From Escherichia coli (GTDB lineage Bacteria > Pseudomonadota > Gammaproteobacteria > Enterobacterales > Enterobacteriaceae): 64,000 nt of DNA. Shown in pieces: positions 4,845 to 62,819 of the stretch. Within the stretch, counting starts at the first letter, position 1, and the number at the start of each line of letters is the position of its first letter. The DNA is taken from assembly GCF_024502345.1 (NCBI RefSeq), contig NZ_JALDNN010000001.1, one strand, 5' to 3'. The notes beneath the pieces were generated by a model, which saw nothing but the letters and a program-made list of their open reading frames with translations, searched no databases and was not told the origin of the DNA. A program made the translations under genes and the position numbers.

Positions 4845-4946
4845 ATGCCGGATGCGGCGTAAACGCTTTGTCCGGCCCACAAAAGCACGTAAATTCAATA
4901 TATTGCTGAAATAACGTAGGCCTGATAAGCGTAGCGCATCAGGCAA
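4845..4946. repeat. REP (repetitive extragenic palindrome) pair
   Basis: GCCGGATGCGGCGTAAACGCTTTGTCCGGC and GTAGGCCTGATAAGCGTAGCGCATCAGGC, canonical REP consensus, between convergent tsx and yajD. Confidence 0.8.
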
Positions 4947-4959
4947 TTTTACGTTTTAA

Positions 4960-5307
4960 TCACTTCTTCTTGTTCATCATCGCTTTCAGGTCAGCGAATG
5001 GGTTGTACTTCGCTTCACCGACATCTTTCTGCGCATCTTCCCCTGCGATAACGGTCGTACCATACTGATCCGCTTCGGTATATTTCGAATGCTCATGATC
5101 GTGGCAATAGAGACAAAGCAATTCCTAGTTACTGCCATCTTCCGGGTTATTGGTATGGTCGTGATCAATGTGGTGAACAGTAAGTTCACGCAGGTTGGAA
5201 TAGACAAACTCGCGGGAACAGCGACCGCAGACCCACGGATAGATTTTTAATGCTTTTTCGCGATAGCCGCTTTCTAACCGCGCATAGTTTTTTGGGATGA
5301 TAGCCAT
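4960..5307 (-). pseudogene. yajD: HNH-family protein YajD, interrupted by an in-frame amber codon (TAG at 5125-5127, minus strand)
   Basis: Track ORF 5125..5307 (60 aa, MAIIPKNYARLESGYREK...NNPEDGSN) stops at TAG; the same frame continues ELLCLYCH... to TGA at 4960-4962, giving the recalled 115 aa YajD length if read through. Confidence 0.75.
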
Positions 5308-5382: not shown

Positions 5383-5414
5383 CAAAAAAAATCCCGATCT
5401 TCTGACCGGGATTT
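5383..5414 (-). terminator. rho-independent terminator downstream of secF
   Basis: Minus-strand hairpin AATCCCGGTCAGAAGATCGGGATT followed by a run of 8 T. Confidence 0.6.
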
Positions 5415-5435
5415 TCAACATCAACGGGAAATTGA

Positions 5436-9830: not shown

Positions 9831-10901
9831 TTACTCCCCGACGCGCTCATTAATTGCCTGCGGATTGTACGTGATAAACATCGCATCACCGTAACTAAAA
9901 AAGCGATATTTCTCTTCTACCGCTGCTTTATAGGCGTTCATGGTGTGTTGATAACCGGCAAAGGCCGAAACCAGCATAATCAGCGTCGATTCCGGCAGGT
10001 GGAAGTTTGTCACCAGCGCATCGACCACTTTGTACTGGAAGCCCGGATAGATAAAGATTTGGGTATCGTCAAAGAACGGTTCGATAAGATCGTTTTTCGC
10101 CGCCTGAGCCGCGCTTTCCAGCGAACGTACTGAGGTGGTGCCAACCGCAATCACCCGGTTACCGCGCGCTTTCGCCGCCAGTACCGCGTCTACCACATCC
10201 TGCGGCACTTCAGCGTATTCCGAGTGCATGATGTGATCTTCAATGGTGTCGACGCGCACCGGCTGGAAGGTGCCCGCACCAACGTGCAACGTCACAAACG
10301 CCATCTCCACGCCTTTGGCGCGTAATTTTTCCAGCAAAGGTTCGTCAAAATGCAGACCTGCGGTCGGGGCTGCAACCGCGCCCGGTTTTTCGCTATAAAC
10401 GGTTTGATAAAGTTCGCGGTCAGCGTCTTCGTCCGGACGGTCGATATACGGCGGCAGCGGCATATGGCCGATGCTATTGAGAATATCCAGCACCGAGCGT
10501 TCATCATTAAATTCGACTTCAAACAGTGCGCCGTGGCGCGCGGTCATTGTTGCGTTAATACTTTCGTCATCGCCCAGCAGCAGTTCTGCGCCAGGTTTTG
10601 GCGCTTTCGAGGCGCGAATATGCGCAAGAATGCGTTTGTCGTCGAGCATCCGTTCAACCAGCACTTCAATCTTGCCGCCGCTGGCTTTACGCCCAAACAG
10701 GCGCGCCGGGATCACGCGGGTATTATTAAAAACCAGAAGATCGCCGGGGTTGAGCTTATCAAGTAAATCGGTGAAAGTACCGTGCGTCAGCGCGCCCGTC
10801 GGCCCGTCCAGCGACAGTAAACGACAGCTACTGCGTTCAGGCATGGGATAGTGGGCAATCAGGGATTCGGGCAATTCAAAGGAGAAATCGGTAACGCGCA
10901 T
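9831..10901 (-). CDS. queA: S-adenosylmethionine:tRNA ribosyltransferase-isomerase QueA
   Basis: Track ORF 356 aa, [29 protein letters not shown]... Confidence 0.95.
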
Positions 10902-41739: not shown

Positions 41740-44743
<3,004 letters not shown>

Positions 44744-45268
44744 TTGTCATCCCTCCTCAGGGACATAATAAGTTGATCCATCAATTATCAATGCATAGAA
44801 AACATATTATGTTTCGCGTTGACGATTATGCGGCGTTATAGAGGAATGGTTCAATTATTCTTTCCCCTAAGTCCGATTGCGGACATATATAAAGCACGTG
44901 AACACACACACAGAAATAAATAACAAAAACACAATATTTCAATACGTTAATGAAAGCGTTAATTTTAAAACATAGACCATGAAAATATAAAACAACTAAA
45001 ACAGACAAATAATGTATCAATAAGCAATGAACTTTAAGTTATTCACTTTTTGAAAACGTCACCAAATCCCCAAAAACAATAATCTATGGCTATAAATAAA
45101 AATTAAAAATATTTTCAGTGAATATGAAATTATTGCTATTTCTATTACAAAGATGTCCTGGTCTCTCTTTCATTCTCTTCTTGTCAACATCACGACAACT
45201 TTCGTAAAACACTCCTGCCCCGCTTCAGGTATACTGTGCACCTTAATTCCACAAACATCAGGCAGACC

Positions 45269-46243
45269 ATGACAGACTTAATCCAACGCCCTCGTCGCCT
45301 GCGCAAATCTCCTGCGCTGCGCGCTATGTTTGAAGAGACAACACTTAGCCTTAACGACCTGGTGTTGCCGATCTTTGTTGAAGAAGAAATTGACGACTAC
45401 AAAGCCGTTGAAGCCATGCCAGGCGTGATGCGCATTCCAGAGAAACATCTGGCACGCGAAATTGAACGCATCGCCAACGCCGGTATTCGTTCCGTGATGA
45501 CTTTTGGCATCTCTCACCATACCGATGAAACCGGCAGCGATGCCTGGCGGGAAGATGGACTGGTGGCGCGTATGTCGCGCATCTGCAAGCAGACAGTGCC
45601 AGAAATGATTGTTATGTCAGACACCTGTTTCTGTGAATACACTTCTCACGGTCACTGCGGTGTGCTGTGCGAGCATGGCGTCGACAACGACGCGACTCTG
45701 GAAAATTTAGGCAAGCAAGCCGTGGTTGCAGCTGCTGCAGGTGCAGACTTCATCGCCCCTTCCGCCGCGATGGATGGCCAGGTACAGGCGATTCGCCAGG
45801 CGCTGGACGCTGCTGGCTTTAAAGATACGGCGATTATGTCGTATTCGACCAAGTTCGCCTCCTCCTTTTATGGTCCGTTCCGTGAAGCTGCCGGAAGCGC
45901 ATTAAAAGGCGACCGCAAAAGCTATCAGATGAACCCAATGAACCGTCGTGAGGCGATTCGTGAGTCACTGCTGGATGAAGCCCAGGGCGCAGACTGCCTG
46001 ATGGTTAAACCTGCTGGAGCGTACCTCGACATCGTGCGTGAGCTGCGTGAACGTACTGAATTGCCGATTGGCGCGTATCAGGTGAGCGGTGAGTACGCGT
46101 TGATTAAGTTCGCCGCGCTGGCGGGTGCTATAGATGAAGAGAAAGTGGTGCTCGAAAGCTTAGGTTCGATTAAGCGTGCGGGTGCGGATCTGATTTTCAG
46201 CTACTTTGCGCTGGATTTGGCTGAGAAGAAGATTCTGCGTTAA
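45269..46243 (+). CDS. hemB: porphobilinogen synthase (delta-aminolevulinic acid dehydratase)
   Basis: Track ORF 45236..46243; recognised N-terminus [28 protein letters not shown] at 45269 gives 324 aa. Confidence 0.95.
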
Positions 46244-46293
46244 TTTTGTTTCCTCTCAGAAAGGGGGAGTTAACCTGTTGAAAGTACGGTGAA

Positions 46294-46334
46294 CGCCCCC
46301 TCACCCTAACCCTCTCCCCAAGGGGGCGAGGGGA
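46294..46334. repeat. GC-rich palindromic intergenic element / probable bidirectional terminator
   Basis: CGCCCCCTCACCCTAACCCTCTCCCCAAGGGGGCGAGGGG; CGCCCCC pairs with GGGGGCG; between convergent hemB and tauD. Confidence 0.5.
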
Positions 46335-46349
46335 CCGTCCACTCTCGTA

Positions 46350-47201
46350 TTACCCCGCCCGATAAAACGGTTTATCCCCAAGAATCGTCGCCCGATGCAT
46401 TATCCGTCGCTGTGGCAGGTAATCGGCATTGGCATAGTGCTGGGTCACGCGGTTATCCCAAATCGCAATATCATTTGGTTGCCAGCGCCAGCGCACCTGA
46501 AACTCCGGTTTGGTGATATGGGCAAACAAAAAACTTAACAAGGCTTCGCTCTCTTTCTCGCTCACATCAACAATTCGCGTAGTAAAGCCTTCATTCACAA
46601 ACAGCGCCTGTTTACCGCTCACCGGATGCGTTCGCACCACCGGATGTAGCAACGGCGGGTTTTTCGCGACCGCCTCGCGCCAGCGTTGATGTTCCTCCTC
46701 GGTTTTGCGGTATTTGTATTCCGGGAACGATTTACGAAAATCATGCTCCGCACGCAGCCCGCTCAGCAGCTGGCGGAAGGGAACAGAGAGCGCCTCATAG
46801 GCCGCAATACCGCTGGTCCAGAGCGTATCGCCGCCGGTCGAAGGTAACTCTTTCGCTGCCAGAATCGCCCCTGCGGGTGGCGTTTCAATAAATGTCACAT
46901 CGGTATGCCAGTTGTCGTTATCCGGCGGATTATCGTTATGGGTATCCAGCACGATGATCTCGTCAACCCCTTCAGCATGAGGGTAAACAGGGTGAATATG
47001 CAGTTCGCCAAAACGCTGGGCCAGCGCGCGTTGCTGCAGCGGCGTAATGGCTTGATCGCGCAGAAACACCACCTGATGGCGCAGTACCGCATGGTAAAGT
47101 TGTTCAAACTGATTATCGCTTAACGGGCGCGTCAGGTCGGCACCCGAAATTTGTGCTCCGATATACGGCCCCAGCGGGGTAATGCTCAGACGTTCACTCA
47201 T
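46350..47201 (-). CDS. tauD: taurine dioxygenase (alpha-ketoglutarate dependent)
   Basis: Track ORF 283 aa, [39 protein letters not shown]... Confidence 0.95.
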
Positions 47202-48025
47202 TGTACTTCTCCATGCCAGGGCGTCAGTCGGCGCTGTAACGCGCGCAAACCCAGTTCTAAAAGAAAGGCGATAATCGCAATCACCGCGATCCCCGCCAGC
47301 ACCACGTCAGTCGCGAGAAATTCACCCGCTGACTGAACCATAAATCCTAAACCGCGCGTCGCGGCAATCAGCTCCGCCGCTACCAGGGTAGACCAGCCCA
47401 CCCCCAGACCAATGCGTAATCCGGTGAGGATTTCCGGCAGCGCGCCGGGCAAAATGACAAACCACAGCACCTGCGCACGGCTGGCACCCAGCGACTGGGC
47501 GGCACGAATGCGAACCTGCTGCGCGCTTTTCACCCCTGCCAGCGCCGACATCGCCACCGGTGCAAAAATCGCTAAATAGATCAGTAAGATCTTCGAGGTT
47601 TCGCCAATACCAAACCAGATCACCATCAGTGGTAAATAAGCCAGCGGCGGCACCGGACGATAAAGTTCGATTACCGGATCCAGAATGCCGCGCACCGTCG
47701 GGCTTAGCCCCATGGCGATCCCGACCGGAATGCCGATCAACACCGCCGCGAGTAGCGCCAGCACAATGCGCGTCAGGCTGGCTGCCAGATGCTGCCACAG
47801 CGTGGCGTCCATAAATCCCTGCGGTCCGGCAATGGTGAGCAGTTTTGCCAGTACTTGTTGCGGCGGCGGCAAAAACAGCGGGCTAATCAGTTGCAGCGCC
47901 GCCACCGTCCACCATACAGTGAGTAAAACCGCTAACGTGCCAATGCTTAAGGTCACCTGACGCGAGAGCGGCCAGCGCCATTTCAGCCGCCGCGAATGCA
48001 GTTTTTCATTAATGAGCACACTCAT
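47198..48025 (-). CDS. tauC: taurine ABC transporter permease
   Basis: Track ORF 275 aa; ABC permease; start overlaps the tauB stop. Confidence 0.9.
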
Positions 48026-48789
48026 GAGAACGCCTCCCGTTGCTCAAATACGCGGCTTAAAACATATTCGCGCATGGCGATGAATTGTGGATCGGACTTG
48101 ATGCTGCGGCTCGACTCTCCCGCAACAAAGCGGCGAGCAAAGTTGAGCTGCAGCCGCTCCAGCACACGGCCAGGACCGGATGAAAGCAGAACCAGTTCAG
48201 TCGCCATAAACACCGCTTCTTCTATATCGTGGGTAATCAACAGCACCTGCTTGCCCGTCTCCTGCCAGAGTTTCAGCAGCAGGGTTTGCATCTGGTCGCG
48301 GGTGAAGGCGTCCAGCGCACCAAACGGTTCGTCGAGTAATAACAGCTGGGGATTCGCCGCCAGCGCGCGGGCAATCCCCACCCGCTGACGTTGACCACCG
48401 GAAAGCTGCCAGATGTAGCGTTTTTCTGCGCCTTCCAGCCCCACTTTTTTCAGCATCTGGTGCGCGATTTCCAGTCGCTGCATTTTCTCTATACCTGCCA
48501 ATTGCAGGCCGAACGCCACGTTGTCCTGTACATTGCGCCACAGTAGTAGCCCTTCATTCTGAAAAACTACGCCACGCTCTGCTCCCGGTCCCTCAATACG
48601 CTTACCCGCCAGTTGAATGCTGCCATGCTGATAAGGCACAAAACCGGCAATCAGATTCAGCAGGGTGGTTTTACCGCAGCCGGACGGCCCCAGCACCACC
48701 AGTAGCTCGCCGCTTTCCAGCGTCAGGTTGATATCTTCCAGTGCCGGTTTGCCGCCATAATCGGCGTAAAGATGAGAGATTTGCAGCAT
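48022..48789 (-). CDS. tauB: taurine ABC transporter ATP-binding protein
   Basis: Track ORF 255 aa; Walker [10 protein letters not shown], signature LSGGQRQRV. Confidence 0.95.
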
Positions 48790-48801
48790 CTGCGCCTCCT
48801 T

Positions 48802-49764
48802 TTATTGCACGAAGCGCGAGGTAACGTACTGGCTGTAATCATTCGCTACAGCCGGGACCTTGCCCTGCTCTTTCAAAAACTGCGCGGTGTCGATGATCGC
48901 TTTGTTCACCGGTCCGGTCAGTTCTGCCGTTTGTTGCTGCGGCGTCAGATAGGTATTCCCCTTCACCAGCCCCGGAACGTCACCTTCAGGCACGCCGCTT
49001 AAACGCGCCAGTTTGCTGATGTTTTCCGGCTGTTTCAGCCACGCGTCTGGGTTAGCAATGTACGGTTGCTGAGCATCGATGGCGCTTTTGGCGAACGCTT
49101 TCACGACCTCAGGATGTTTCTCGGCAAAATCTTTGCGCACCACCCAGACGTCCAGCGTTGGCGCACCCCACTGCCCGACCTGTTCAGAATCGGTCAGCAC
49201 CTTGCCGTCTTTTTCCAGGGCGTTAACCGCCGGTGCCCAGACATAAGCACCATCAATATCTCCCCGCTGCCAGGCAGCGATAATCGCGGGCGGCTGCAGG
49301 TTCACAATCTCCACTTGCCCGGGTTTAATGCCCCAGTGTTTCAGCGCCGCCAGCAGGCTGTAGTGGGTAGTGGAGATAAACGGTACGGCGATGCGTTTGC
49401 CAATCAGATCTTCGGGTTTGCTGATAGTTTTCTTCACCACCAGCGCTTCGGAGTTACCCAGTTTTGACGCCAGCAAGAAGACTTCAATCGGCACCTGTTG
49501 GCTGGCTGCAACCGCTAATGGGCTGGAACCGAGGTTGCCGATTTGCACGTCGCCAGAAGCCAGCGCCCGCACGATGCTGGCTCCGCTGTCAAACTTACGC
49601 CAGTCCACGGTTGCTCCGCTTTCTTTAGCAAAGGTGTTGTCGGCCTGAGCCACTTTCGCCGGTTCGGCTGAGGTTTGATACGCCACGGTGACGTTCACCG
49701 CCTGCGCCTGAAAAGCGATGAATGCCAGTGCGGCAAGAAGAGTGTTACGCGATGAAATTGCCAT
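48802..49764 (-). CDS. tauA: taurine ABC transporter periplasmic binding protein
   Basis: Track ORF 320 aa; signal peptide MAISSRNTLLAALAFIAFQAQA. Confidence 0.95.
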   Translation of the reverse strand: MAISSRNTLLAALAFIAFQAQAVNVTVAYQTSAEPAKVAQADNTFAKESGATVDWRKFDSGASIVRALASGDVQIGNLGSSPLAVAASQQVPIEVFLLASKLGNSEALVVKKTISKPEDLIGKRIAVPFISTTHYSLLAALKHWGIKPGQVEIVNLQPPAIIAAWQRGDIDGAYVWAPAVNALEKDGKVLTDSEQVGQWGAPTLDVWVVRKDFAEKHPEVVKAFAKSAIDAQQPYIANPDAWLKQPENISKLARLSGVPEGDVPGLVKGNTYLTPQQQTAELTGPVNKAIIDTAQFLKEQGKVPAVANDYSQYVTSRFVQ

Positions 49765-50066
49765 GATTGTCTGCTCCCCTGTCTTGTTATGGGAGCAGTA
49801 TTTCGTTGCGGGTCAGTTTGATAAAGGAATTAAAAGGTCTTGTTAAGAACAAAGCGTTTTTAGAAAAAAATCGGCAATGGTTAGCGAGTTTGCGCATTTT
49901 GCGGTTTTGGCGAACGTATCCCGCCGGTTCACAAGCCAGATAAGATGTGCGCGCTCCGGCAAATTATTGCCATTTTGTTACATCCATTCCATATCTGTCG
50001 CTGGTTGATTGCCAGCGCCGCGCCGTGATGCATGATAGGAGAATTAGATAATAAGAGAAGAAAAGT

Positions 50067-50696
50067 ATGATTCGGGTAGTGCTGGTGGATGACCATGTGG
50101 TGGTGCGCTCTGGCTTCGCACAATTACTCTCTCTGGAAGACGATCTGGAGGTCATTGGTCAGTACAGTAGTGCCGCGCAGGCATGGTCGGCATTAATCCG
50201 TGATGACGTCAATGTTGCCGTCATTGATATTGCCATGCCGGACGAAAACGGCCTCAGTTTGCTTAAGCGCCTGCGTGCACAAAAACCGCAATTTCGCGCC
50301 ATTATTCTTAGCATTTATGACGCGCCAACCTTTGTGCAAAGCGCGCTGGATGCCGGTGCCAGCGGGTATTTAACCAAACGCTGTGGGCCGGAAGAGTTAG
50401 TACAGGCGGTGCGCTCGGTCGGGCTGGGCGGGCATTATCTCTGTGCCGATGCGATTCGGGCTTTACGCGGCGGCGGGCAACCCGCCCAGGCGCTGGAAAT
50501 TCTCACCCCACGAGAACGTGAAGTGTTTGATTTACTGGTCAAAGGAGACAGCGTTAAAGAGATCGCCTTTAAACTCGAACTCAGTCATAAAACGGTACAT
50601 GTGCATCGCGCCAATGTGCTGGGAAAACTGAACTGCCATAGCACCATTGAACTGGTACATTTTGCGCTCGACCACCATCTGCTGGCGGGGCATTAA
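50067..50696 (+). CDS. UhpA-like response regulator (NarL/FixJ family, LuxR-type HTH)
   Basis: Track ORF 209 aa, MIRVVLVDDHVVVRSGFAQLL...; receiver domain with DD..D and C-terminal HTH (KEIAFKLELSHKTVHVHRANVLGKL); aligns along its length with recalled UhpA. Confidence 0.85.
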   Translation: MIRVVLVDDHVVVRSGFAQLLSLEDDLEVIGQYSSAAQAWSALIRDDVNVAVIDIAMPDENGLSLLKRLRAQKPQFRAIILSIYDAPTFVQSALDAGASGYLTKRCGPEELVQAVRSVGLGGHYLCADAIRALRGGGQPAQALEILTPREREVFDLLVKGDSVKEIAFKLELSHKTVHVHRANVLGKLNCHSTIELVHFALDHHLLAGH

Positions 50697-52237
50697 TGTC
50701 GCGCAATCTTCGTCATTGGGTGATTTCGCTGTTTATTGTGCTGGCCTGGGGAACCGGCTGGCTGATGCTGTGGACGCTCAGCTTTTATCTGACCAATAAC
50801 GGTCAACAGGCGGTGTTGTTTCTCCCGCAGGGAGTTTATCTCGCCCTTGTTATTTTGCTCTCTCGCCGCTACTGGCCTGCGTTGGTGCTCCCCCCTTTGC
50901 TGATGATGTTCTGGCTCCATAGTGAACAGCTATTGAACGGTTATCTCATGCTGGCAACGCCGGTTATTAGCCTGTTTCCTGTCCTCCTTGCGCAAAACTT
51001 CTGGCACCGTTTTCCACTTTACTGGCAGCGTCTGACGTTGCTGTTAGCCACTGTCACGGCAGCTTCATTGTTGAATACCGCCCTGCTCTCCCCTTTTATG
51101 TCAGGCCCAATAATGCTGCCGGGTTTGACCTCATTTACCGGCGGCGTATTACTGACGCCGTTTGTCTATCTTATCTTTGAGTTTCTGCGCCAGCAGCATC
51201 GCTACCAGCTCCTGGGACTCGATACGCATAATCCCCCCTTGCGTACCTCTTTAATCATCTGGTGTAGCCTGTTTTTTATTATTGGTATCGGCACTCAGAT
51301 GGTGCTGTCACCTGAAATTGAACGTCTGCTGTTGATCGTGGTCTTTTTGCCCAATGTGGTGATGGCGTGGAAATTTGGCTGGCAAGGTGGCGTACTCTCC
51401 GGGCTTTTGGGCAGCATGATGATCACCATCGCCCGCCAGATTGGCGTGGGCTTTAGTAACCTGGTGGAGCTGGAGATTTTCCTCGCGACCCAGGCCTTGC
51501 TGGGAATTGGCCTGGGCATTGCCATCAGTCGCCAGCAACATCTGGCGCTAAACCTGCACCATTACCGACAACGGCTGGAGGCCGAGCTGGCAGCGCGGCG
51601 GGCATTGGCGGAAAAGCTGATCCACACCGAGGAGGACACGCGAAAAAACCTGGCGCGAGAGCTGCACGACGAAATCGGTCAGAACATCACCGCCATTCAG
51701 ATCCAGTCGCAACTGGTGAAGCGGGCGCGTGATCCGGCGCAAATTCAATCCGCAGCCAGCCAAATCAATGAGCTCGCCCGCCGCATTCATCTCTCCACCC
51801 GCCAATTGCTGCGCCAGTTGCGGCCTCCCGCGCTTGATGAACTGACATTTCGCGAAGCGTTGCTGCATCTGATTAATGAATTTGCCTTTAGTGAACGCGG
51901 CATTCATTGCCAGTTTGCCTATCAACTGAACTCCACACCAGAAAACGAAACGGTGCGCTTTACCTTGTATCGGTTATTGCAGGAGTTGCTCAATAACATC
52001 TGTAAACACGCCGAAGCCAGCGAAGTGACGATTATCCTGCGCCAGCAGGGAGAGGTATTGCATCTGGAAGTCAGCGACAACGGTGTGGGGATCGCCAGCG
52101 GGAAAATGGCCGGATTTGGCATTCAGGGGATGCGTGAGCGCGTCAGCGCCCTGGGCGGCGACTTAACGCTCGAAAAACAGCACGGCACGCGGGTAATTGT
52201 TAACTTGCCCACATTTTTGCAACAAATCGCCGGATAA
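50696..52237 (+). CDS. UhpB-like sensor histidine kinase (MASE1-type membrane domain, HisKA_3, HATPase)
   Basis: Track ORF 513 aa; multiple N-terminal TM helices, H-box ELHDEIGQNITAI, ATP-binding region; start overlaps the stop of the upstream regulator. Confidence 0.85.
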   Translation: MSRNLRHWVISLFIVLAWGTGWLMLWTLSFYLTNNGQQAVLFLPQGVYLALVILLSRRYWPALVLPPLLMMFWLHSEQLLNGYLMLATPVISLFPVLLAQNFWHRFPLYWQRLTLLLATVTAASLLNTALLSPFMSGPIMLPGLTSFTGGVLLTPFVYLIFEFLRQQHRYQLLGLDTHNPPLRTSLIIWCSLFFIIGIGTQMVLSPEIERLLLIVVFLPNVVMAWKFGWQGGVLSGLLGSMMITIARQIGVGFSNLVELEIFLATQALLGIGLGIAISRQQHLALNLHHYRQRLEAELAARRALAEKLIHTEEDTRKNLARELHDEIGQNITAIQIQSQLVKRARDPAQIQSAASQINELARRIHLSTRQLLRQLRPPALDELTFREALLHLINEFAFSERGIHCQFAYQLNSTPENETVRFTLYRLLQELLNNICKHAEASEVTIILRQQGEVLHLEVSDNGVGIASGKMAGFGIQGMRERVSALGGDLTLEKQHGTRVIVNLPTFLQQIAG

Positions 52238-52309
52238 CCAGGAAAAAGTCTTAGGTATCCCGGATTTTCTCTCATCCCCTTTCACTTTCATTTTCATATA
52301 GTCAGCAAC

Positions 52310-53626
52310 ATGGAGACAACCATGCACGCGCGTTCAGCGAGAGAAATTAATCAATGCTACCGGACATTACGTCCGCGATTGCTGATGTGCATGATTATTG
52401 GCTACGCCGCATTTTATCTGACGCGAAAAAGCGTGAATTACGTCCTTCCGGCGCTACAAACCGACCTCGGACTGGATAAAGGCGACATTGGCCTGCTGGG
52501 TTCGCTGTTTTATCTCAGCTACGGATTGTCGAAATTTACCGCCGGACTGTGGCATGACAGCCATGGACAACGCGGTTTTATGGGCGTCGGCTTGTTCGCC
52601 ACCGGGTTATTGAACGTGGTGTTTGCCTTTGGCGAATCACTTACGCTTCTGCTTGTGGTCTGGACACTGAACGGTTTTTTTCAGGGCTGGGGATGGCCAC
52701 CGTGTGCCCGCTTGCTGACCCACTGGTACTCACGCAATGAGCGCGGTTTCTGGTGGGGCTGCTGGAATATGTCGATCAACATTGGCGGAGCGATTATTCC
52801 GCTGATTAGCGCCTTTGCCGCCCACTGGTGGGGCTGGCAGGCCGCGATGCTGACACCGGGGATAATCAGCATGGCATTAGGGATCTGGTTAACGCTACAA
52901 CTCAAAGGCACGCCCCAGGAAGAGGGATTACCGACAGTTGGTCACTGGCGTCACGATCCGCTGGAGTTACGTCAGGAACAACAAAGTCCGCCGATGGGGC
53001 TGTGGCAAATGTTGCGCACCACCATGCTGCAAAATCCGCTGATCTGGCTACTGGGCGTCTCTTATGTACTGGTTTATGTGATCCGGATTGCGCTTAACGA
53101 CTGGGGCAATATCTGGCTGACGGAAAGCCACGGTGTCAACCTGCTCAGCGCCAACGCCACGGTAATGCTGTTTGAAGTGGGCGGCTTACTCGGCGCGTTA
53201 TTTGCCGGATGGGGATCGGATTTGCTGTTTAGCGGGCAACGAGCGCCAATGATTTTGCTGTTCACGTTGGGGTTGATGGTGTCAGTCGCCGCACTGTGGC
53301 TGGCACCGGTTCATCACTACGCTCTGCTGGCAGTGTGCTTTTTTACCGTGGGCTTTTTCGTCTTTGGCCCACAAATGCTGATTGGACTTGCGGCGGTGGA
53401 GTGTGGGCACAAAGCTGCGGCGGGTTCAATCACCGGATTTCTCGGCCTGTTCGCTTACCTTGGCGCGGCGCTGGCAGGCTGGCCGCTGTCGCTGGTCATC
53501 GAACGCTACGGCTGGCCGGGAATGTTCAGTTTACTCTCGGTCGCCGCAGTACTTATGGGTTTACTGCTGATGCCGTTACTGATGGCGGGCATCACCACCA
53601 CTCACGCTCGAAGGATAAAACAATGA
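52310..53626 (+). CDS. UhpC-like MFS membrane protein (putative sugar-phosphate sensor)
   Basis: Track ORF 438 aa; organophosphate:Pi antiporter-type MFS motifs (YLTRKS, FFQGWGWPPCARLLTHWYS), similar in length and sequence to recalled UhpC. Confidence 0.8.
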   Translation: METTMHARSAREINQCYRTLRPRLLMCMIIGYAAFYLTRKSVNYVLPALQTDLGLDKGDIGLLGSLFYLSYGLSKFTAGLWHDSHGQRGFMGVGLFATGLLNVVFAFGESLTLLLVVWTLNGFFQGWGWPPCARLLTHWYSRNERGFWWGCWNMSINIGGAIIPLISAFAAHWWGWQAAMLTPGIISMALGIWLTLQLKGTPQEEGLPTVGHWRHDPLELRQEQQSPPMGLWQMLRTTMLQNPLIWLLGVSYVLVYVIRIALNDWGNIWLTESHGVNLLSANATVMLFEVGGLLGALFAGWGSDLLFSGQRAPMILLFTLGLMVSVAALWLAPVHHYALLAVCFFTVGFFVFGPQMLIGLAAVECGHKAAAGSITGFLGLFAYLGAALAGWPLSLVIERYGWPGMFSLLSVAAVLMGLLLMPLLMAGITTTHARRIKQ

Positions 53627-54654
53627 AAATGACCTTTACCTCTACTCTGATTGCTTCTGCCGTTGCGCTGGCGACTTTAACGGGTGCCGCGCAGGCAAAA
53701 GGCCGGCTGGTGGTCTATTGCAGCGCCACCAATGAAATGTGTGAGGCCGAAACCAAAGCGTTTGGCGAGAAATATGATGTAAAAACCTCGTTTATCCGCA
53801 ACGGTTCCGGAAGCACCCTGGCAAAAGTCGATGCTGAAAAGAAAAACCCCCAGGCTGACGTCTGGTACGGCGGCACTTTAGACCCGCAATCGCAGGCTGG
53901 CGAGATGGGCCTGCTACAGGCGTATAAATCCCCTAACCTTGAGCAGATCATGGAGAAATTCCGCGATCCGGCAAAAGTGAAAGGGAATCTGTCCTCTGCC
54001 GTTTATGTGGGGATCCTCGGTTTTGGCGTAAACACCGATCGTCTGAAAGAGAAAAACCTGCCGGTGCCGAAGTGCTGGAAAGATCTCACCAAACCGGAAT
54101 ATAAAGGCGAAATTCAAATTGCCGATCCGCAAAGTTCCGGTACTGCCTACACCGCCCTGGCTACTTTTGCGCAGCTGTGGGGGGAAGATCAGGCCTTTGA
54201 TTATCTAAAACAACTGAACGCCAACGTCTCTCAGTACACCAAATCAGGCATAGCCCCGGCACGTAACGCCGCCCGTGGCGAAACGGCGATTGGTATTGGC
54301 TTCCTGCATGACTACTCGCTGGAAAAAGAACAGGGCGCGCCGCTGGAGTTGATTTCCCCGTGTGAAGGTACGGGCTACGAAATTGGCGGCGTCAGCATTC
54401 TGAAAGGCGCGCGCAACCTCGACAACGCCAAACTGTTTGTGGACTGGGTATTATCAAAAGAAGCTCAGGAACTGGCGTGGAAGAAAGGGAAGTCTTATCA
54501 GATCCTGACCAATACCACCGCCGAAACGTCGCCAAATTCGCTGAAGCTCGACGACCTGAAATTAATCAACTACGACATGGATAAATATGGTTCCACGGAT
54601 GTTCGTAAGGCATTGATTAATAAATGGGTCAGCGAAGTGAAGATGGGTAAATAA
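53623..54654 (+). CDS. afuA: AfuA/FbpA-type periplasmic substrate-binding protein of an ABC importer
   Basis: In-frame ATG at 53623 within track ORF 53296..54654 gives 343 aa with signal peptide MKMTFTSTLIASAVALATLTGAAQA; ATG overlaps the stop of the UhpC-like gene (ATGA). Confidence 0.8.
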   Translation: MKMTFTSTLIASAVALATLTGAAQAKGRLVVYCSATNEMCEAETKAFGEKYDVKTSFIRNGSGSTLAKVDAEKKNPQADVWYGGTLDPQSQAGEMGLLQAYKSPNLEQIMEKFRDPAKVKGNLSSAVYVGILGFGVNTDRLKEKNLPVPKCWKDLTKPEYKGEIQIADPQSSGTAYTALATFAQLWGEDQAFDYLKQLNANVSQYTKSGIAPARNAARGETAIGIGFLHDYSLEKEQGAPLELISPCEGTGYEIGGVSILKGARNLDNAKLFVDWVLSKEAQELAWKKGKSYQILTNTTAETSPNSLKLDDLKLINYDMDKYGSTDVRKALINKWVSEVKMGK

Positions 54655-54722
54655 ACCCGCATTAGGCGTATTTGCCGGGTGCAGCACAAACGCCTGCCCC
54701 GGCCAACCATACCGGAACTACT

Positions 54723-56801
54723 ATGTCACAGACACTTGCACTCCATCCCGTGAAAAAGCGGGATGCGATTTTCCTTTGGGTTTTACTGGGCTGGCTGGCA
54801 TTTATACTGTTGCCGAGCTGGAGCCTCGATTATGGCCTGCTGGAGTCCACGAGTGATGAGATCCTCGAGGCTTATGGCTGGTCGCATTTTAATATCAGCT
54901 GGCTGTGGTATTTACTCCCGAGCCTGTTGCTGGTTCGCCCGTTTCGTGAGGCCACGCGCGAACAGCGTAGTCGTCATTATTTTGATGCCAGCTGGGCATT
55001 GCTCTGTATGGCGTTTATCGTCATCAGCGCCACCGTGGCTGGACGCGGTTTAGGCTACGCCGCCATCGTGCTGTTTGTTGAACTAGGCGCGATTATGACG
55101 CTGGCCTTAACCCGCCTCGAATGGCTGGGCGGCGACCGCTTCGTGATCGGCTCACTGATTGCGATTGTGGCGCTGATTGGCATTTTTATCGTCTGGCCGA
55201 GCATCGCCATTTTTATCCCGATGTTCACCAACGACGCGGGAGAGTTCGCCCCGCTGGCGTTTATGACCGTGCTCTCGCAGGCACATATTGTTCAGGTGAT
55301 CGTCAACTCTATCGTCTTGTCGATAGCGGTGGGGATAGGCTGTACTTTCTTCGGCCTGGTGCTGGCGATTTATACCACGCGCATCGCTAAACGCAGCGCC
55401 ATTATTGGTCGCATCTTTTCCATTTTGCCCATCGTTACGCCACCGTTTGTGGTCGGCTTAGGCGTGACGCTCATGATGGGGCGCTCCGGCTATGTTACGG
55501 AATTTATGGTGGAGTGGTTTGGGCTGACCAACACCAACTGGCTGTACGGTTTTACCGGGATCTGGCTGGCACAGGTTCTGGCATTCACGCCAATGGCATT
55601 TATGATCCTCGACGGGGCCATTAAAACCATTCATCCCTCGCTGGAAGAGGCCTCCTACACCCTGCGCGCCAGCCGCTGGCAAACCTTTAACGGCGTGTTT
55701 GTGCCGTTGTTGAAGCCCGCACTCGCCAATGCCTTTTTAATCGTCGTGGTACAGTCACTGGCTGATTTCAGTAACCCGCTGGTACTTGGCGGTAACTTCG
55801 ACGTACTGGCGACGCAAATTTACTTCTATATTACCGGCTCGCAGCTGGATTATCAGGCCGCCAGCACGCTTGGCGCTTTCCTGCTGCTGTTCTCGCTGCT
55901 GGTGTTCTGCATCCAGTATATGTGGATTGGTAAACGCTCTTACGTCACGGTTTCCGGCAAATCCTACCGTGGCGACGTCCAGCCGCTACCGGTCACCCTG
56001 GTGTGGAGCGTGGTCGCCATACTTGCGATATGGATTGCCTTTAACGCCCTGCTCTACGGCAGCATTTTCTACGGCAGCTTCACGGTGAACTGGGGCGTGG
56101 ACTACACCCTGACGCTGGATAACTTTATCAAGCTATTTGGTCAGGGAATGAGCGACGGCGCGTGGCCTTCACTGCTGGATACCCTGCTCTACGCCGGGAT
56201 TGCCGCTCCCATTACCGCTATCTTTGGCCTGCTCATCGCCTGGGTGGTGGTGCGTCAACAATTCAAAGGCAAAAAGACCATCGAGTTCACCACCATGCTG
56301 TGCTTTGCCGTACCGGGTACGGTGGCGGGCGTTTCGTATATTCTTGCCTTTAACAGCGCTCCGGTTTATCTCACCGGAACGGCGGCAATTGTGATTATCT
56401 CGATGGTGATGCGTAACGTTCCGGTGGGTATTCGCGCCGGGATTGCGGGTCTGGGGCAGATCGACAAATCGCTGGATGAAGCCTCACTCAGCCTGCGCGC
56501 GGGTTCCTTGCGAACCATAACCCACATTTTACTGCCGCTGCTGCGTCCGGCCATTCTCTCGGCCCTGATCTACAGCTTTGTGCGGGCCATCACGACGGTC
56601 AGCGCCATCGTCTTTCTCGTCACGCCGGACACCCGCGTGGCAACCGCCTACATTCTTAACCGCGTTGAAGACGGCGAATATGGCGTAGCCATCGCCTATG
56701 GTTCGATTCTGATCGTGGTGATGCTGGCGATTATTTTCCTCTTTGACTGGCTGATCGGAGAAGCTCGTATCTCCCGTTCTAAAGCCAAAAACAAGGCGTA
56801 A
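54723..56801 (+). CDS. afuB: AfuB/FbpB-type ABC permease with two fused transmembrane domains
   Basis: Track ORF 54672..56801 starts at a TTG; first ATG at 54723 (MSQTLALHP...) gives about 692 aa; duplicated ABC permease modules; the alternative start at 54672 cannot be excluded. Confidence 0.8.
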
Positions 56802-57859
56802 TGGAGCGCACTATGAGTCAGAAAAATTTTGTTGAACTGCGCAACGTCACTAAACGATTCGGCAGTAATACGGTTATCGACAATATCAATCTCACCATTC
56901 CACAAGGGCAAATGGTGACGCTGCTCGGTCCTTCCGGCTGTGGCAAAACCACCATTTTGCGTCTGGTTGCCGGGCTGGAAAAACCGAGCGAAGGGCAAAT
57001 TTTTATTGATGGCGAAGATGTCACGCATCGTTCCATTCAACAGCGCGATATCTGCATGGTGTTTCAGTCATACGCTCTGTTCCCGCATATGTCGCTGGGT
57101 GAAAACGTTGGCTACGGGCTGAAGATGCTTGGCGTCTCGCGTAGCGAAGTGAAACAGCGGGTGAAGGAGGCGCTGGCAATGGTGGATCTGGAAGGCTTCG
57201 AGGACCGCTATGTCGATCAGATTTCCGGTGGTCAGCAACAGCGTGTGGCACTGGCCCGCGCGTTGATCCTCAAGCCAAAGGTGCTGCTGTTTGATGAGCC
57301 GTTAAGTAACCTCGATGCCAACCTGCGCCGCAGTATGCGCGATAAGATCCGCGAGCTGCAAAAGCAGTTTAATATCACGTCGCTCTACGTCACTCACGAT
57401 CAAAGTGAAGCTTTCGCGGTGTCCGACACTGTGCTGGTGATGAATAAAGGTCACATCATGCAGATTGGCTCACCGCAGGATCTCTATCGTCAGCCAGCCT
57501 CCCGATTTATGGCAAGTTTTATGGGCGACGCCAACCTGTTCCCGGCGAACTTTAGCGAAGAGTATGTCGATATCTACGGTTATCGCCTGCCGCGCGCGGC
57601 GCATTTCCCGGCGCAAGGTAGCGGCACCGTCGGCGTTCGCCCGGAAGCCATCACCTTAAGCAATCACGGCGAAGAGAGTCAGCGTTGTGTTATTCGCCAT
57701 GTCGCCTACATGGGGCCGCAGTACGAAGTGACCGTAGAGTGGCATGGACAGGAGATTTTATTACAAGTAAACGCCACCCGTTTACAGCCCGATATTGGTG
57801 AGCACTATTACCTCGAAATCCATCCTTACGGGATGTTTGTTTTAGCGGATACGGCATAA
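56801..57859 (+). CDS. afuC: AfuC/FbpC-type ABC transporter ATP-binding protein
   Basis: Track ORF 352 aa; Walker [10 protein letters not shown], signature [14 protein letters not shown], Walker [11 protein letters not shown]-terminal TOBE-like regulatory domain; ATG overlaps the afuB stop (TAATG); a start at 56813 with a GGAG RBS is also possible. Confidence 0.85.
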
Positions 57860-57873
57860 AAATAGCACATAAA

Positions 57874-57900
57874 CGGTCCCCATCTGTCTTGAGGGACCGT
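57874..57900 (+). terminator. possible terminator hairpin after afuC
   Basis: GGTCCC-N12-GGGACC stem-loop 15 bp after the afuC stop; no strong T-tract. Confidence 0.4.
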
Positions 57901-57943
57901 TCACCTGGTTAGGCTTCGGACAACAATTATTCTCCAGTGTTAT

Positions 57944-57992
57944 ATACTATAGGGGGGTATGTATTGACATATAGCATACCCCCCTATAGTAT
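57944..57992 (+). promoter_or_regulatory. frmRAB promoter/operator: long inverted repeat with G6/C6 tracts
   Basis: ATACTATAGGGGGGTATG-(12 bp with TTGACA)-CATACCCCCCTATAGTAT, near-perfect 18-bp arms 27 bp upstream of the frmR ATG; matches the TACT-G6-N-AGTA type RcnR/FrmR operator. Confidence 0.75.
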
Positions 57993-58018
57993 ATTGCGTG
58001 CAGATGATGAGGTGCGAA

Positions 58019-58294
58019 ATGCCCAGTACTCCGGAAGAGAAGAAAAAGGTCCTTACTCGAGTTCGTCGTATTCGGGGGCAGATTGATGCTCTGGAACGGT
58101 CGCTGGAGGGTGATGCCGAATGCCGTGCCATACTCCAACAGATCGCTGCCGTTCGGGGCGCGGCTAACGGGCTGATGGCAGAAGTGCTTGAAAGCCATAT
58201 CCGGGAAACGTTTGACCGAAATGACTGCTACAGCCGCGAAGTCAGCCAATCCGTTGACGACACTATTGAACTGGTTCGAGCCTATCTTAAATAG
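58019..58294 (+). CDS. frmR: formaldehyde-responsive repressor FrmR (CsoR/RcnR family)
   Basis: Track ORF 57998..58294; recognised N-terminus [31 protein letters not shown] gives 91 aa. Confidence 0.9.
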
Positions 58295-58298
58295 CTGA

Positions 58299-59438
<1,140 letters not shown>

Positions 59439-59530
59439 TTTCCCGCTGGTTTACCCCGTCCACTTCAGACGGGGTTCTTAATACTCTCCCCGGGCAGCCG
59501 TCCGGGGGATTAACCGTGAGATAATGACTG

Positions 59531-60364
59531 ATGGAACTCATTGAAAAACATGCCAGCTTTGGCGGCTGGCAAAATGTGTATCGGCATTATTCCGCATCAC
59601 TGAAATGTGAAATGAATGTCGGCGTCTATCTCCCACCAAAAGCTGCAGGTGAAAAATTACCGGTGCTGTACTGGCTTTCGGGCCTGACCTGCAATGAGCA
59701 GAATTTCATTACTAAATCGGGGGTGCAGCGTTACGCGGCTGAGCACAACATTATTGTTGTTGCGCCGGATACCAGTCCGCGAGGCAGTCATGTCGCAGAT
59801 GCAGACCGTTACGATCTCGGGCAAGGTGCCGGGTTTTACCTGAACGCGACGCAAGCGCCGTGGAATGAACATTACAAAATGTATGACTATATCCGCAACG
59901 AGCTGCCGGATTTAGTGATGCATCATTTTCCGGCAACGGCCAAAAAGTCTATCTCTGGTCATTCTATGGGCGGGCTGGGCGCGCTGGTGCTGGCGTTACG
60001 TAACCCAGATGAATATGCCAGCGTCTCGGCGTTTTCGCCCATTGTCTCCCCATCGCAAGTACCGTGGGGACAGCAAGCCTTTGCTGCATATCTTGGTGAA
60101 AATAAAGATGCCTGGTTGTATTACGACCCGGTGAGTCTTATTTCACAAGGTCAACGCGTTGCGGAAATAATGGTTGATCAGGGGTTGAGTGATGATTTTT
60201 ACGCGGAACAGCTGCGGACTCCAAATCTTGAAAAGATCTGCCAGGAGATGAATATCAAGACGTTAATCCGTTATCACGAGGGTTACGACCACAGCTATTA
60301 TTTTGTCTCCAGTTTTATTGGCGAGCATATTGCCTACCACGCCAATAAACTGAATATGCGTTGA
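59531..60364 (+). CDS. frmB: S-formylglutathione hydrolase
   Basis: Track ORF 277 aa; esterase D family, GHSMGG serine-hydrolase motif. Confidence 0.95.
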   Translation: MELIEKHASFGGWQNVYRHYSASLKCEMNVGVYLPPKAAGEKLPVLYWLSGLTCNEQNFITKSGVQRYAAEHNIIVVAPDTSPRGSHVADADRYDLGQGAGFYLNATQAPWNEHYKMYDYIRNELPDLVMHHFPATAKKSISGHSMGGLGALVLALRNPDEYASVSAFSPIVSPSQVPWGQQAFAAYLGENKDAWLYYDPVSLISQGQRVAEIMVDQGLSDDFYAEQLRTPNLEKICQEMNIKTLIRYHEGYDHSYYFVSSFIGEHIAYHANKLNMR

Positions 60365-60377
60365 TAATAGTGCACGA

Positions 60378-60470
60378 CTGCCGGATGCGGCGTGAACGCC
60401 TTATCCGGCCTACACTTCGCCCATAAACCGTAGGCCTGATAAGACGCGTAAGCGTCGCATCAGGCATCTG
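60378..60470. repeat. REP pair
   Basis: CCGGATGCGGCGTGAACGCCTTATCCGG and GTAGGCCTGATAAGACGCGTAAGCGTCGCATCAGGC between convergent frmB and yaiL. Confidence 0.8.
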
Positions 60471-60488
60471 CGCACGACTTATCTATGT

Positions 60489-61028
60489 TTACCACATCAA
60501 ATCATCAGGCACTTTGAAGTCGGCATACGGGTCGTCTTCATCCTGCTCTTCGGCACTGAGCGCGCTGTGCAACACAATACTGCTGGCATCACGCTGAGCA
60601 ATTTTATCGGCAACGCTGGCGGGAATAATTGCGTATTCACCTTCGCTATTGTTATCGACCAACAAGCGGGCAATCGCCAGACGACCATTAATCAACTGCG
60701 CCTGTGTGAGCTTATCGACAAAAATCTTCTTAATCAGATTGCCGTCAGTGAAATTAAAACCAATATCGCCATTGGCAATGGTGATCCGGTTCATTTCAAT
60801 AAGCTGCTTCACCTGAGCTTTATATTCTTTCGCCAACGCCGCTTGTTTTTGCTGTTCGCTAAGCTGTTTATCACGCTCAAGCTGTGCCTTTTTATTTTCT
60901 TCTACCGCCGCCCGAGCTTCACGCGCCTGAACGCGCGATTTTTTCGCCGTTCTCTCGACCTTCGCCGCTTTTTTGCTGGTGACTAATCCTGCTTTGAGCA
61001 ACTGCTCTTGTAAGGTAAGTTTTGCCAT
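60489..61028 (-). CDS. yaiL: DUF2058-family protein YaiL
   Basis: Track ORF 60489..61145; recognised N-terminus MAKLTLQEQLLKAGLVTSKKAAKVER gives 179 aa. Confidence 0.8.
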   Translation of the reverse strand: MAKLTLQEQLLKAGLVTSKKAAKVERTAKKSRVQAREARAAVEENKKAQLERDKQLSEQQKQAALAKEYKAQVKQLIEMNRITIANGDIGFNFTDGNLIKKIFVDKLTQAQLINGRLAIARLLVDNNSEGEYAIIPASVADKIAQRDASSIVLHSALSAEEQDEDDPYADFKVPDDLMW

Positions 61029-61129
61029 CTTTGTTTCCAAACCCGCTGAATAATTTTTAGCGAGTATACCTGTAAACGCCGTGGGTGTATTGGGGGCAAG
61101 TCCCTTTCGCCCCTGCTTAATAAGGCGCG

Positions 61130-62341
61130 TCAGGCATCGGCACACGGCTGCATTCTTGATCTCCGACTCATCAAAATAAACACCGCCAACCCAGCAACAA
61201 GAATACCCGGTGCAGAAGCGGCCATTACGCCGACCGTGCCAGTGCCTAATGCCAGCATTTTCCCGGCCAGTAACGGACCGCTCATAGCCCCCAGACGCCC
61301 TACCGCCACGGCTGTTCCCACACCTGTTGCGCGGATCTGCGAACTGTAAAACAACGGTGCCAGGGCATATAAAACGCTTTGCCCACCTGTCGCAAACAAC
61401 CCCGCGACAAATCCCGCCAGCAACATACCGTTAAATGACGACACCGTTCCAAGCGCCAGCAGCGAAGCTAACATGCCGCTATAAATCAGTCGCGACATGG
61501 TTACTGGACGCAGCTTATCCATCAATGCGCCCAACATTAACGTCCCGCTTGCCGCCCCCATTTGCAGGGCAAACATCACCCCTGCCGCCTGCGATGGCTG
61601 GAATCCTTGCTCCACCAAAAGTAGCGGTAGCCAGTTGATCAACATATAAACCACCAGCAGAGTGAAGAAATAACACAACCACAGCAGCAGCGTCGCGGTT
61701 GCCGTTTCTGGCGCAAATAAGGCACGCAGTGGTGGCGCAGCCTGTTTTTCGCCAGCGAAAACCGCTGACTCCGGCAGCCAGCGCATTAATAGCGGCACCA
61801 GAATCAACGGCACCACACCACCTACCCAAAACACCGTTTGCCATGCTAAGTTTGCCCCCGCGAAACCCAGTGTCGCCGCCAGCGCCGCGCCAATGGGAAC
61901 ACCGCAATACATCAGGCTCACTGCCGTCCCACGAAAACGTGGACCCGCGGCTTCAGATGTCAGGGCGATAAGATTCGGCAACGCCGCCCCCAGCCCGACA
62001 CCGGTCATCAGCCGCGCAAAGACCAGTGAGGGGAAATCCCAGGCAATCGCCGTTGCCAGTGAGAACAAACCAAACAGCGCAACTGAGCCAATCAAAATAC
62101 GCTTACGACCATAACGGTCTGCCAGCATCCCGCCAACCAACGCGCCGGGTAGCAAACCGAGTATTCCGGCGCTAAATATCCAGCCCATTTGCATTTTATC
62201 GAGTGCGAAAGCCTGGGCGATGCCACCCGCCGCAATGCCAGCCGCCTGAAGATCCAGCCCTTCCATCAGAGCGACCAAAAAACAAAGCCCGATGGTCAGC
62301 ATCAGGCGGGATGAAGATGATGAAGGGGTACGAGTCGACAT
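61130..62341 (-). CDS. mhpT: 3-(3-hydroxyphenyl)propionate MFS transporter MhpT
   Basis: Track ORF 61130..62386; recognised N-terminus MSTRTPSSSSSRLMLTIGLCFLVALMEGLDLQ gives 403 aa; 12-TM MFS. Confidence 0.85.
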   Translation of the reverse strand: MSTRTPSSSSSRLMLTIGLCFLVALMEGLDLQAAGIAAGGIAQAFALDKMQMGWIFSAGILGLLPGALVGGMLADRYGRKRILIGSVALFGLFSLATAIAWDFPSLVFARLMTGVGLGAALPNLIALTSEAAGPRFRGTAVSLMYCGVPIGAALAATLGFAGANLAWQTVFWVGGVVPLILVPLLMRWLPESAVFAGEKQAAPPLRALFAPETATATLLLWLCYFFTLLVVYMLINWLPLLLVEQGFQPSQAAGVMFALQMGAASGTLMLGALMDKLRPVTMSRLIYSGMLASLLALGTVSSFNGMLLAGFVAGLFATGGQSVLYALAPLFYSSQIRATGVGTAVAVGRLGAMSGPLLAGKMLALGTGTVGVMAASAPGILVAGLAVFILMSRRSRMQPCADA

Positions 62342-62432
62342 AAGATGAACCTCATTGCGAGTGCAGGTGAATCGCGACTGATACATTGCCAGCCGCGTAA
62401 TCAGAACTATTTAATGACTGCCTACGGGCAAA

Positions 62433-62780: not shown

Positions 62781-62819
62781 GGGATGGGCATACAAAATGC
62801 ACGTTCTCGGCAGTCAATA

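What the first reader, a model, noticed from the sequence alone, without database searches (positions are those of the whole stretch)
5125..5127. In-frame amber codon truncates the HNH-family gene yajD
Seen in sequence: the yajD frame reads ...HHIDHDHTNNPEDGSN, then TAG, then continues in frame ELLCLYCH... to the expected stop at 4960. A single TGG to TAG change at a Trp codon explains it. The truncated product would lose the second half of the HNH/zinc-finger motif (the CxxC...H part). This is a recent pseudogenisation, a read-through event, or a base-call error.
Basis: seen in the sequence. Interest (0 to 1): 0.45.

Follow-up and report, generated by a model that had tools for sequence, protein, structure and literature searches.

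The report
Strain-private amber stop in yajD
A single G-to-A change turns Trp codon 61 of the small, dispensable HNH-nuclease gene yajD into a stop codon in this E. coli strain only, which makes it an ordinary, recent gene-inactivating mutation (or, less likely, a base-call error).

Summary
On the minus strand, yajD (4960..5307) reads ...PEDGSN, then TAG at 5127..5125, then continues in frame to the normal stop at 4960-4962. Apart from that one base, the 115 codons encode exactly the standard E. coli YajD.

The change is TGG to TAG. Five assemblies of the window's own lineage (99.86-99.98% identical over about 21.8 kb) all have TGG, and 5126 is the only position where the window differs from all of them. 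No complete RefSeq E. coli genome has TAG or TGA there (0 hits, against 3,797 for the TGG control).

The same TAG does occur in an unrelated E. coli clone, sampled at least three times and about 1% divergent, and a third background has TGA at this codon. The allele is therefore viable and arose independently. Codon 61 carries 2 of the gene's 6 transition routes to a stop, and ten other truncated YajD products are on record at similar frequencies, so nothing suggests a hotspot or selection.

The stop cuts the Pfam HNH domain (residues 27-75) at residue 60, removing the second CxxC and the final histidines. A Salmonella yajD deletion has no phenotype. Nothing supports read-through. A base-call error cannot be excluded without the reads. 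Verdict: ordinary, low interest.

The parts
4960..5307 (-). yajD reading frame (115 codons plus stop), interrupted at codon 61. It is a pseudogene or null allele of the YajD-family HNH nuclease.
   Evidence: for the translation; for NF008448 at 210 bits; for Pfam HNH at residues 27-75; for the same coordinates and neighbours as annotated yajD in TUM13936 and FDAARGOS_943.
5125..5127 (-). Amber codon TAG replacing Trp61 (TGG). The changed base is 5126 (G->A on the coding strand).
   Evidence: 5126 is the only position at which the window differs from every one of its closest relatives L020-L024. L025 also has G there.
5128..5307 (-). The part still translated, a 60-aa N-terminal fragment. It keeps C27xxC30 and the HHIDHDH strand and ends at N60.
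   Evidence: ORF 5125..5307; the fragment alone still scores 115 bits on NF008448, profile positions 2-60 of 113.
4960..5124 (-). Untranslated 3' remnant encoding residues 62-115 and the original stop codon. It contains C65xxC68 and H69/H71/H73 and is undamaged at the amino-acid level.
   Evidence: A 53-aa TTG ORF at 4960..5121 is not on record anywhere as a called gene.
5387..5416 (-). Terminator-like hairpin plus T-run after secF, just upstream of yajD. It suggests that yajD is a separate, final transcription unit.
   Evidence: 13-pair stem and a T-run. This is a consensus match only.
4900..4958 (.). Repeated palindromic (REP-like) element between the convergent genes yajD and tsx. No gene lies downstream of yajD on its strand, so no polar effect is expected.
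   Evidence: The sequence (GCCTGATGCGCTACGCTTATCAGGCCTAC). The 501-base query that contains it matched a median of 16 places per genome. The REP name comes from my own knowledge.

Best explanation
This is a recent, strain-private nonsense mutation, a G->A transition that changes TGG (Trp61) to TAG in yajD. Translation stops after residue 60. The product keeps the first CxxC and the His-rich beta-strand of the HNH (beta-beta-alpha-metal) fold but lacks the second CxxC (C65, C68) and the following histidines. It therefore cannot complete the zinc site or the catalytic metal site and is almost certainly inactive. Because yajD is the last gene on its strand, with tsx converging on it, nothing downstream is affected. 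The gene is dispensable, so the null allele is tolerated.

Shown directly: the stop codon, its ancestral state, its absence from close relatives, and the domain boundaries. Inferred: loss of activity, and neutrality.
For: The sequence and translation are. The ancestral codon TGG is present in the nearest complete genome and in all assemblies of the window's own lineage, which were found through its exact MalZ variant. L020-L025 are 99.86-99.98% identical over about 21.8 kb, and 5126 is the only site that differs in all of them.

In the census of complete E. coli genomes, the TAG 41-mer gave 0 hits, the TGA 41-mer gave 0 hits and the TGG control gave 3,797 of 5,426.

The allele is biologically viable. 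The identical TAG is present in L012, L013 and L014, three separate samples that are identical to each other over 7.2 kb and differ from the window at 76 sites. The exact 60-aa product is on 83 contigs.

The rest of the ORF has no further damage, which fits a recent event. Pfam HNH spans residues 27-75. A weak alignment to T4 endonuclease VII pairs HHIDHDH and LLCLYCH with that enzyme's catalytic and zinc segments. A Salmonella yajD deletion showed no growth, stress or mouse-virulence phenotype (PMC3878590).

The other 56 complete CDSs screened in the window have no internal stop, so this is not a generally error-ridden stretch.
Against: No reads are available, so a consensus base error at 5126 cannot be excluded. 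Being the only private difference in 21.8 kb fits a single real mutation and a single error equally well. Loss of activity is inferred from the domain architecture and has not been measured. YajD has no known substrate or function, so neutrality rests on one Salmonella study.
Confidence: 0.83

Rival explanations
1. It is a base-call or assembly-consensus error. The strain really has TGG and an intact yajD.
For: Position 5126 is the single private difference between the window and its five closest relatives over 21.8 kb. No assembly with this haplotype and the TAG was found. The exact truncated EhaB product of the window is not on record, which suggests the source assembly has no independent replicate in the collection.
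Against: Substitution errors in finished consensus sequence are, from general knowledge, much rarer than real private SNPs. The window's relatives each carry about 3-15 private SNPs over the same 21.8 kb. The context ACTGGGAA is not a long homopolymer. The same change demonstrably occurs in nature (L012-L014). The window also carries a 4-bp tandem duplication in ehaB, a lesion type that is not a typical sequencing artefact, so the strain does appear to carry real inactivating mutations.
Confidence: 0.12
2. The stop is functionally read through. The strain carries an amber suppressor tRNA (supE- or supF-like), or the UAG is leaky, so that useful amounts of full-length YajD are still made.
For: There is no direct evidence. 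The downstream frame is fully intact, which is what one would see if it were still translated, but it is equally what a recent mutation would leave.
Against: The stop is not conserved: all close relatives and 3,797 complete genomes have TGG. It is therefore not a programmed recoding site. The window contains no tRNA gene. From general knowledge, basal UAG read-through in wild-type E. coli is of the order of 0.01-0.1%.
Confidence: 0.02
3. Codon 61 is hit repeatedly because losing or truncating YajD is advantageous, or because the site is a mutational hotspot. On this reading, the window is one instance of parallel evolution.
For: There are at least three independent nonsense events at this codon: TAG in the window, TAG in the L012-L014 clone on a background about 1% divergent, and TGA in L015 on a background carrying parDE.
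Against: There is ascertainment bias, because only the 60-aa product was used as bait. When ten other possible truncation products were looked up, all were on record on 30-259 contigs each, against 83 for the 60-aa product. Many of these are contig-end partials. Codon 61 carries 2 of only 6 transition routes to a stop in the gene. The site is not a Dcm CCWGG site (sequence). No complete genome carries either allele, so the frequency is very low.
Confidence: 0.03

Closest known systems
E. coli YajD (NCBIfam NF008448 'YajD family HNH nuclease'; UniProt YAJD_ECOLI; WP_000974813.1)
   Same: All 114 remaining codons encode the identical amino acids. The position between secF and tsx is the same, and the Pfam HNH domain is the same.
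   Different: Codon 61 is TAG instead of TGG, so only residues 1-60 are made. The second CxxC and the terminal His residues of the HNH motif are lost.
The same W61* (TAG) allele already on record: NCBI STK37146.1 'putative endonuclease [Escherichia coli]' and contigs L012, L013 and L014
   Same: The 60-aa product is identical, the codon change is identical, and the remainder of the gene is equally undamaged.
   Different: The chromosomal background is different: 76 differences in 7.2 kb, including two synonymous sites inside yajD and four sites just upstream. The event is therefore independent, unless a tract of less than 283 bp was transferred by recombination.
Sporadic nonsense pseudogenes of dispensable genes in natural E. 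coli and Shigella isolates
   Same: A single-base change creates a premature stop in an otherwise conserved ORF. The ancestral sense codon is present in close relatives, and there is no secondary decay.
   Different: Nothing distinguishes it. The window shows no IS expansion or multi-gene decay of the Shigella type: 56 of 57 complete reference CDSs screened have no internal stop, and the separately checked ehaB is frameshifted.
T4 endonuclease VII (PDB 1e7d/1en7), a zinc-containing beta-beta-alpha-metal nuclease
   Same: There is weak sequence similarity over YajD residues 15-73. H-x-D-H-D-H and L-L-C-x-x-C align (E = 0.008), and there is a faint Pfam Endonuclease_7 match. This helps identify which residues the truncation removes.
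   Different: The relationship is very distant and YajD has no dimerisation domain. It is used here only as a structural guide and not as a family assignment.

Membership tests
YajD family HNH nuclease (NCBIfam NF008448, equivalog) | Whole-protein HMM score above the curated cut-off of 87 bits | tested here: met
   the conceptual read-through protein scores 210.3 bits, and the 60-aa fragment alone scores 115.3 bits (profile positions 2-60 of 113).
YajD family HNH nuclease (NCBIfam NF008448, equivalog) | Conserved chromosomal position downstream of secDF, convergent with tsx | tested here: met
   the gene order and coordinates are identical to annotated yajD in two RefSeq genomes.
YajD family HNH nuclease (NCBIfam NF008448, equivalog) | Complete HNH domain (both CxxC pairs and the terminal His) in one uninterrupted ORF | tested here: not met
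   Pfam HNH spans residues 27-75 and the ORF stops after residue 60. The locus is therefore a yajD pseudogene or null allele and not a functional member.
Nonsense-mutation pseudogene (recent, lineage-private) | An in-frame stop at a codon that is a sense codon in the closest relatives | tested here: met
   L020-L025 (99.86-99.98% identical) all have TGG; 0 TAG and 0 TGA against 3,797 TGG among complete genomes.
Nonsense-mutation pseudogene (recent, lineage-private) | The stop is real in the organism and not an error in the record | not testable with these tools
   No reads are available. Indirect support only: the same allele occurs in an independent clone.
Programmed stop-codon read-through / recoding site | The stop codon is conserved at that position among relatives | tested here: not met
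   relatives carry TGG.
Amber-suppressed allele (supE/supF-type strain) | Presence of a tRNA gene with a CUA anticodon in the genome | not testable with these tools
   the 64-kb window contains no tRNA gene. The glnV/glnX and tyrT/tyrV loci lie elsewhere on the chromosome (my own knowledge of the K-12 map).

The most novel reading that the evidence does not exclude
Repeated, independent nonsense hits at Trp61 (TAG twice and TGA once, on three backgrounds) could reflect selection to switch off the YajD nuclease while keeping the 60-aa N-terminal zinc-knuckle fragment, or a strain-level amber suppressor could keep the gene partly active. Either would give the first functional clue for this uncharacterised nuclease, which is conserved in other enterobacterial genera.
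Probability: 0.03. Interest if true: 0.4.

Novelty: already known. Interest (0 to 1): 0.08.

Why it matters
It matters very little beyond correct annotation. The locus should be labelled a yajD pseudogene (W61*, amber) and not split into two small ORFs or silently "repaired". It adds a natural knockout of an uncharacterised but conserved HNH nuclease, which fits the reported lack of phenotype for yajD deletion in Salmonella. Anyone who wants to study YajD function would find this strain and the unrelated W61* clone useful as ready-made natural null alleles.

Tried and rejected
(1) Shigella-style genome decay. I suspected this because no complete E. coli genome is more than 99.4% identical to the window. 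I rejected it because the window is colinear with E. coli and has no IS insertions, and 56 of the 57 complete reference CDSs screened have no internal stop.

(2) Using neighbouring proteins (SecF, SecD, Tsx) to find the window's lineage failed, because they are identical across lineages. The YajI variant was too common (16,801 blocks) and was linked only to intact yajD on more distant backgrounds. The exact MalZ variant worked.

(3) I considered reading the 83 contigs that carry the 60-aa product as 83 amber alleles and rejected it. Several are partial genes cut at a contig end (L016-L019), and similar 60/61-aa "partial" products exist for Enterobacter and Salmonella.

(4) I considered a hotspot or selection at codon 61 and rejected it as unsupported after the background look-up of ten other truncation products and the count of mutational routes.

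(5) I considered re-initiation at the TTG three bases after the stop, which would give a 53-aa C-terminal ORF at 4960..5121. I rejected it as unlikely. The only Shine-Dalgarno-like AGGA lies one base from the TTG (sequence), and that product is not on record.

(6) An attempt to identify the source assembly through the truncated EhaB product found nothing on record. I could not establish whether the 4.39-Mb contig that carries STK37146.1 belongs to the window's strain or to the L012-type clone.

(7) I did not use the genome contigs or metagenome-contig scans, because the expected yield did not justify their cost.

Full report
OBSERVATION. On the minus strand, the window reads ...GAT GGC AGT AAC TAG GAA TTG CTT TGT CTC TAT TGC CAC..., with the TAG at 5127..5125. 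The mechanical ORF list gives a 60-aa ORF at 5125..5307(-), MAIIPKNY...HHIDHDHTNNPEDGSN. Translating 4960..5307(-) in one frame gives 115 sense positions with a single '*' at codon 61 and the natural stop at 4960-4962.

IDENTITY OF THE GENE. The conceptual read-through protein scores 210 bits on NCBIfam NF008448, 'YajD family HNH nuclease' (equivalog, cut-off 87). The 60-aa fragment alone still scores 115 bits. Pfam places the HNH domain at residues 27-75. The gene lies between secF and the convergent tsx, at the same coordinates as annotated yajD in RefSeq genomes. Apart from W61*, the encoded sequence is identical to WP_000974813.1.

WHAT CHANGED. Against the nearest complete genome, the only difference within the CDS is G->A at 5126, which turns TGG into TAG. 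I ran a census of the 5,426 complete RefSeq E. coli genomes with 41-mers centred on that base. Megablast needs an exact 28-mer, and every 28-mer of such a query contains the central base, so any hit is allele-specific. The TAG version gave no match, the TGA version gave no match, and the TGG control matched 3,797 genomes. The remaining roughly 30% of genomes have other SNPs nearby and were not assayed.

THE WINDOW'S OWN LINEAGE. No complete E. coli genome is closer than 98.9-99.4% to the window. The neighbouring proteins were too conserved to serve as lineage markers, and the YajI variant was too common. The window's exact MalZ variant did recover six loci (L020-L025), from metagenomes and from NCBI assemblies not classified further, that are 99.86-99.98% identical to the window over about 21.8 kb. 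All six encode an intact 115-aa YajD. In the mismatch lists, 5126 is the only position at which the window differs from every one of L020-L024, and L025 also has G there. The amber codon is therefore derived and private to this strain or this assembly. The remainder of the ORF carries no further damage, so the event is recent.

THE SAME ALLELE ELSEWHERE. The exact 60-aa product is on record on 83 contigs, including NCBI STK37146.1 on a 4.39-Mb contig. Reading the DNA shows three kinds of record.
- L012, L013 and L014 carry a real TAG. They come from three different samples, are identical to each other over 7.2 kb, and differ from the window at 76 sites in those 7.2 kb, including two synonymous sites inside yajD and four sites just upstream.
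- L015 has TGA at the same codon, on a background with a parDE pair inserted between secF and yajD.
- L016-L019 are ordinary genes cut by a contig end at codon 60. Similar 'partial' products exist for Enterobacter and Salmonella, so this class is an assembly artefact.

W61* has therefore arisen at least three times, it persists in at least one natural clone, and it is clearly tolerated.

IS CODON 61 SPECIAL? Probably not. Only six single-transition routes to a stop exist in yajD, and two of them are at W61. I had baited only with the 60-aa product, so as a control I looked up ten other possible truncation products. All were on record, on 30-259 contigs each, which brackets the 83 contigs of the 60-aa product. 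The sequence around the site (AACTGGGAA) is not a Dcm CCWGG site. The apparent recurrence is explained by ascertainment, the very large collection and limited mutational opportunity.

CONSEQUENCE FOR THE PROTEIN (inferred). The fragment keeps C27-x-x-C30 and the HHIDHDH strand. It loses C65-x-x-C68 and H69/H71/H73, the last 15 residues of the Pfam HNH domain. A weak alignment to T4 endonuclease VII (E = 0.008) pairs HHIDHDH and LLCLYCH with that enzyme's catalytic and zinc-binding segments. This supports the view that two of four zinc ligands and a metal-site residue are removed. The fragment is very unlikely to fold or to cut DNA.

There should be no polar effect. A terminator-like hairpin follows secF (5416-5387), and yajD is the last gene on its strand, followed by a REP-like repeat and the convergent tsx. 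A Salmonella Typhimurium yajD deletion grew, resisted stress and infected mice like the wild type (PMC3878590), so a null allele is expected to be nearly neutral.

RIVALS.
- A base-call error cannot be excluded without reads. Against it, the window's relatives each carry several real private SNPs over the same span, the same substitution occurs in nature, and the other 56 complete CDSs screened have no internal stop. I give it about 0.12.
- Read-through or suppression has no support. The stop is not conserved, the window has no tRNA gene, and the suppressor loci cannot be examined.
- Re-initiation at the TTG three bases after the stop is unlikely, because the AGGA lies only one base from it and the product is not on record.

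VERDICT. This is an ordinary, recent, strain-private nonsense allele of a dispensable gene. The allele itself is already present in public records. Interest is low.

IN PASSING. ehaB is also inactivated in this window, by a 4-bp tandem duplication at 43456-43459 that is absent from all complete E. coli genomes.

Noticed in passing
window 41761-44743 (-), lesion at 43456-43459: The autotransporter adhesin gene ehaB is frameshifted by a 4-bp tandem duplication (GTGACC-GACC-CTG, against GTGACC-CTG in strain GF3-3). The frame breaks after about residue 430 of 992. A 44-mer spanning the duplication has no match in 5,426 complete E. coli genomes. With it, the strain has two apparently private gene-inactivating lesions in 64 kb.
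   Followed up: partly
L015 (= L004), Logan SRR3173803, locus 10181-10183: A different nonsense allele, TGG->TGA, occurs at the same yajD codon 61 on another E. coli background. That background has a parD/parE toxin-antitoxin pair inserted between secF and yajD, which the window lacks. Intact-yajD loci L007, L008 and L011 have the same insertion.
   Followed up: partly
L012, L013, L014 (ENA ERZ28624014; Logan SRR29208642; Logan SRR22432250): One E. coli clone, with 0 differences over 7.2 kb among three samples, carries the same yajD W61* amber allele as the window but is about 1% divergent from it. Up to 15 further similar contigs were not shown. The 4.39-Mb contig that carries NCBI STK37146.1 may belong to this clone.
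   Followed up: partly
proteins P0003, P0005, P0010, P0035; loci L016-L019: Very many assemblies of E. coli, Enterobacter and Salmonella have contigs that end exactly at yajD codon 60 or 61. P0010 is on at least 1000 contigs and P0035 on 259. This looks like an assembly-graph break where the variable 5' half of the gene meets the conserved HNH core. It inflates counts of 'truncated' YajD proteins in databases.
   Followed up: no
window about 50067-57859: This block encodes a response regulator, a MASE1 histidine kinase, a UhpC-like sensor and an ABC iron-type transporter (substrate-binding protein, permease, FbpC). It appears to be accessory: only 440 of 5,426 complete genomes cover at least 80% of window 44001-64000, and the best matches include O55:H7 strains.
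   Followed up: no
window 5333 (26 bases upstream of the yajD ATG): The window has T (coding strand) here, where most relatives have C. Among the close relatives, only L020 shares the T. The site lies in the short secF-yajD spacer, where the yajD promoter or 5' UTR must be. The simple scan found no promoter-like site there.
   Followed up: no
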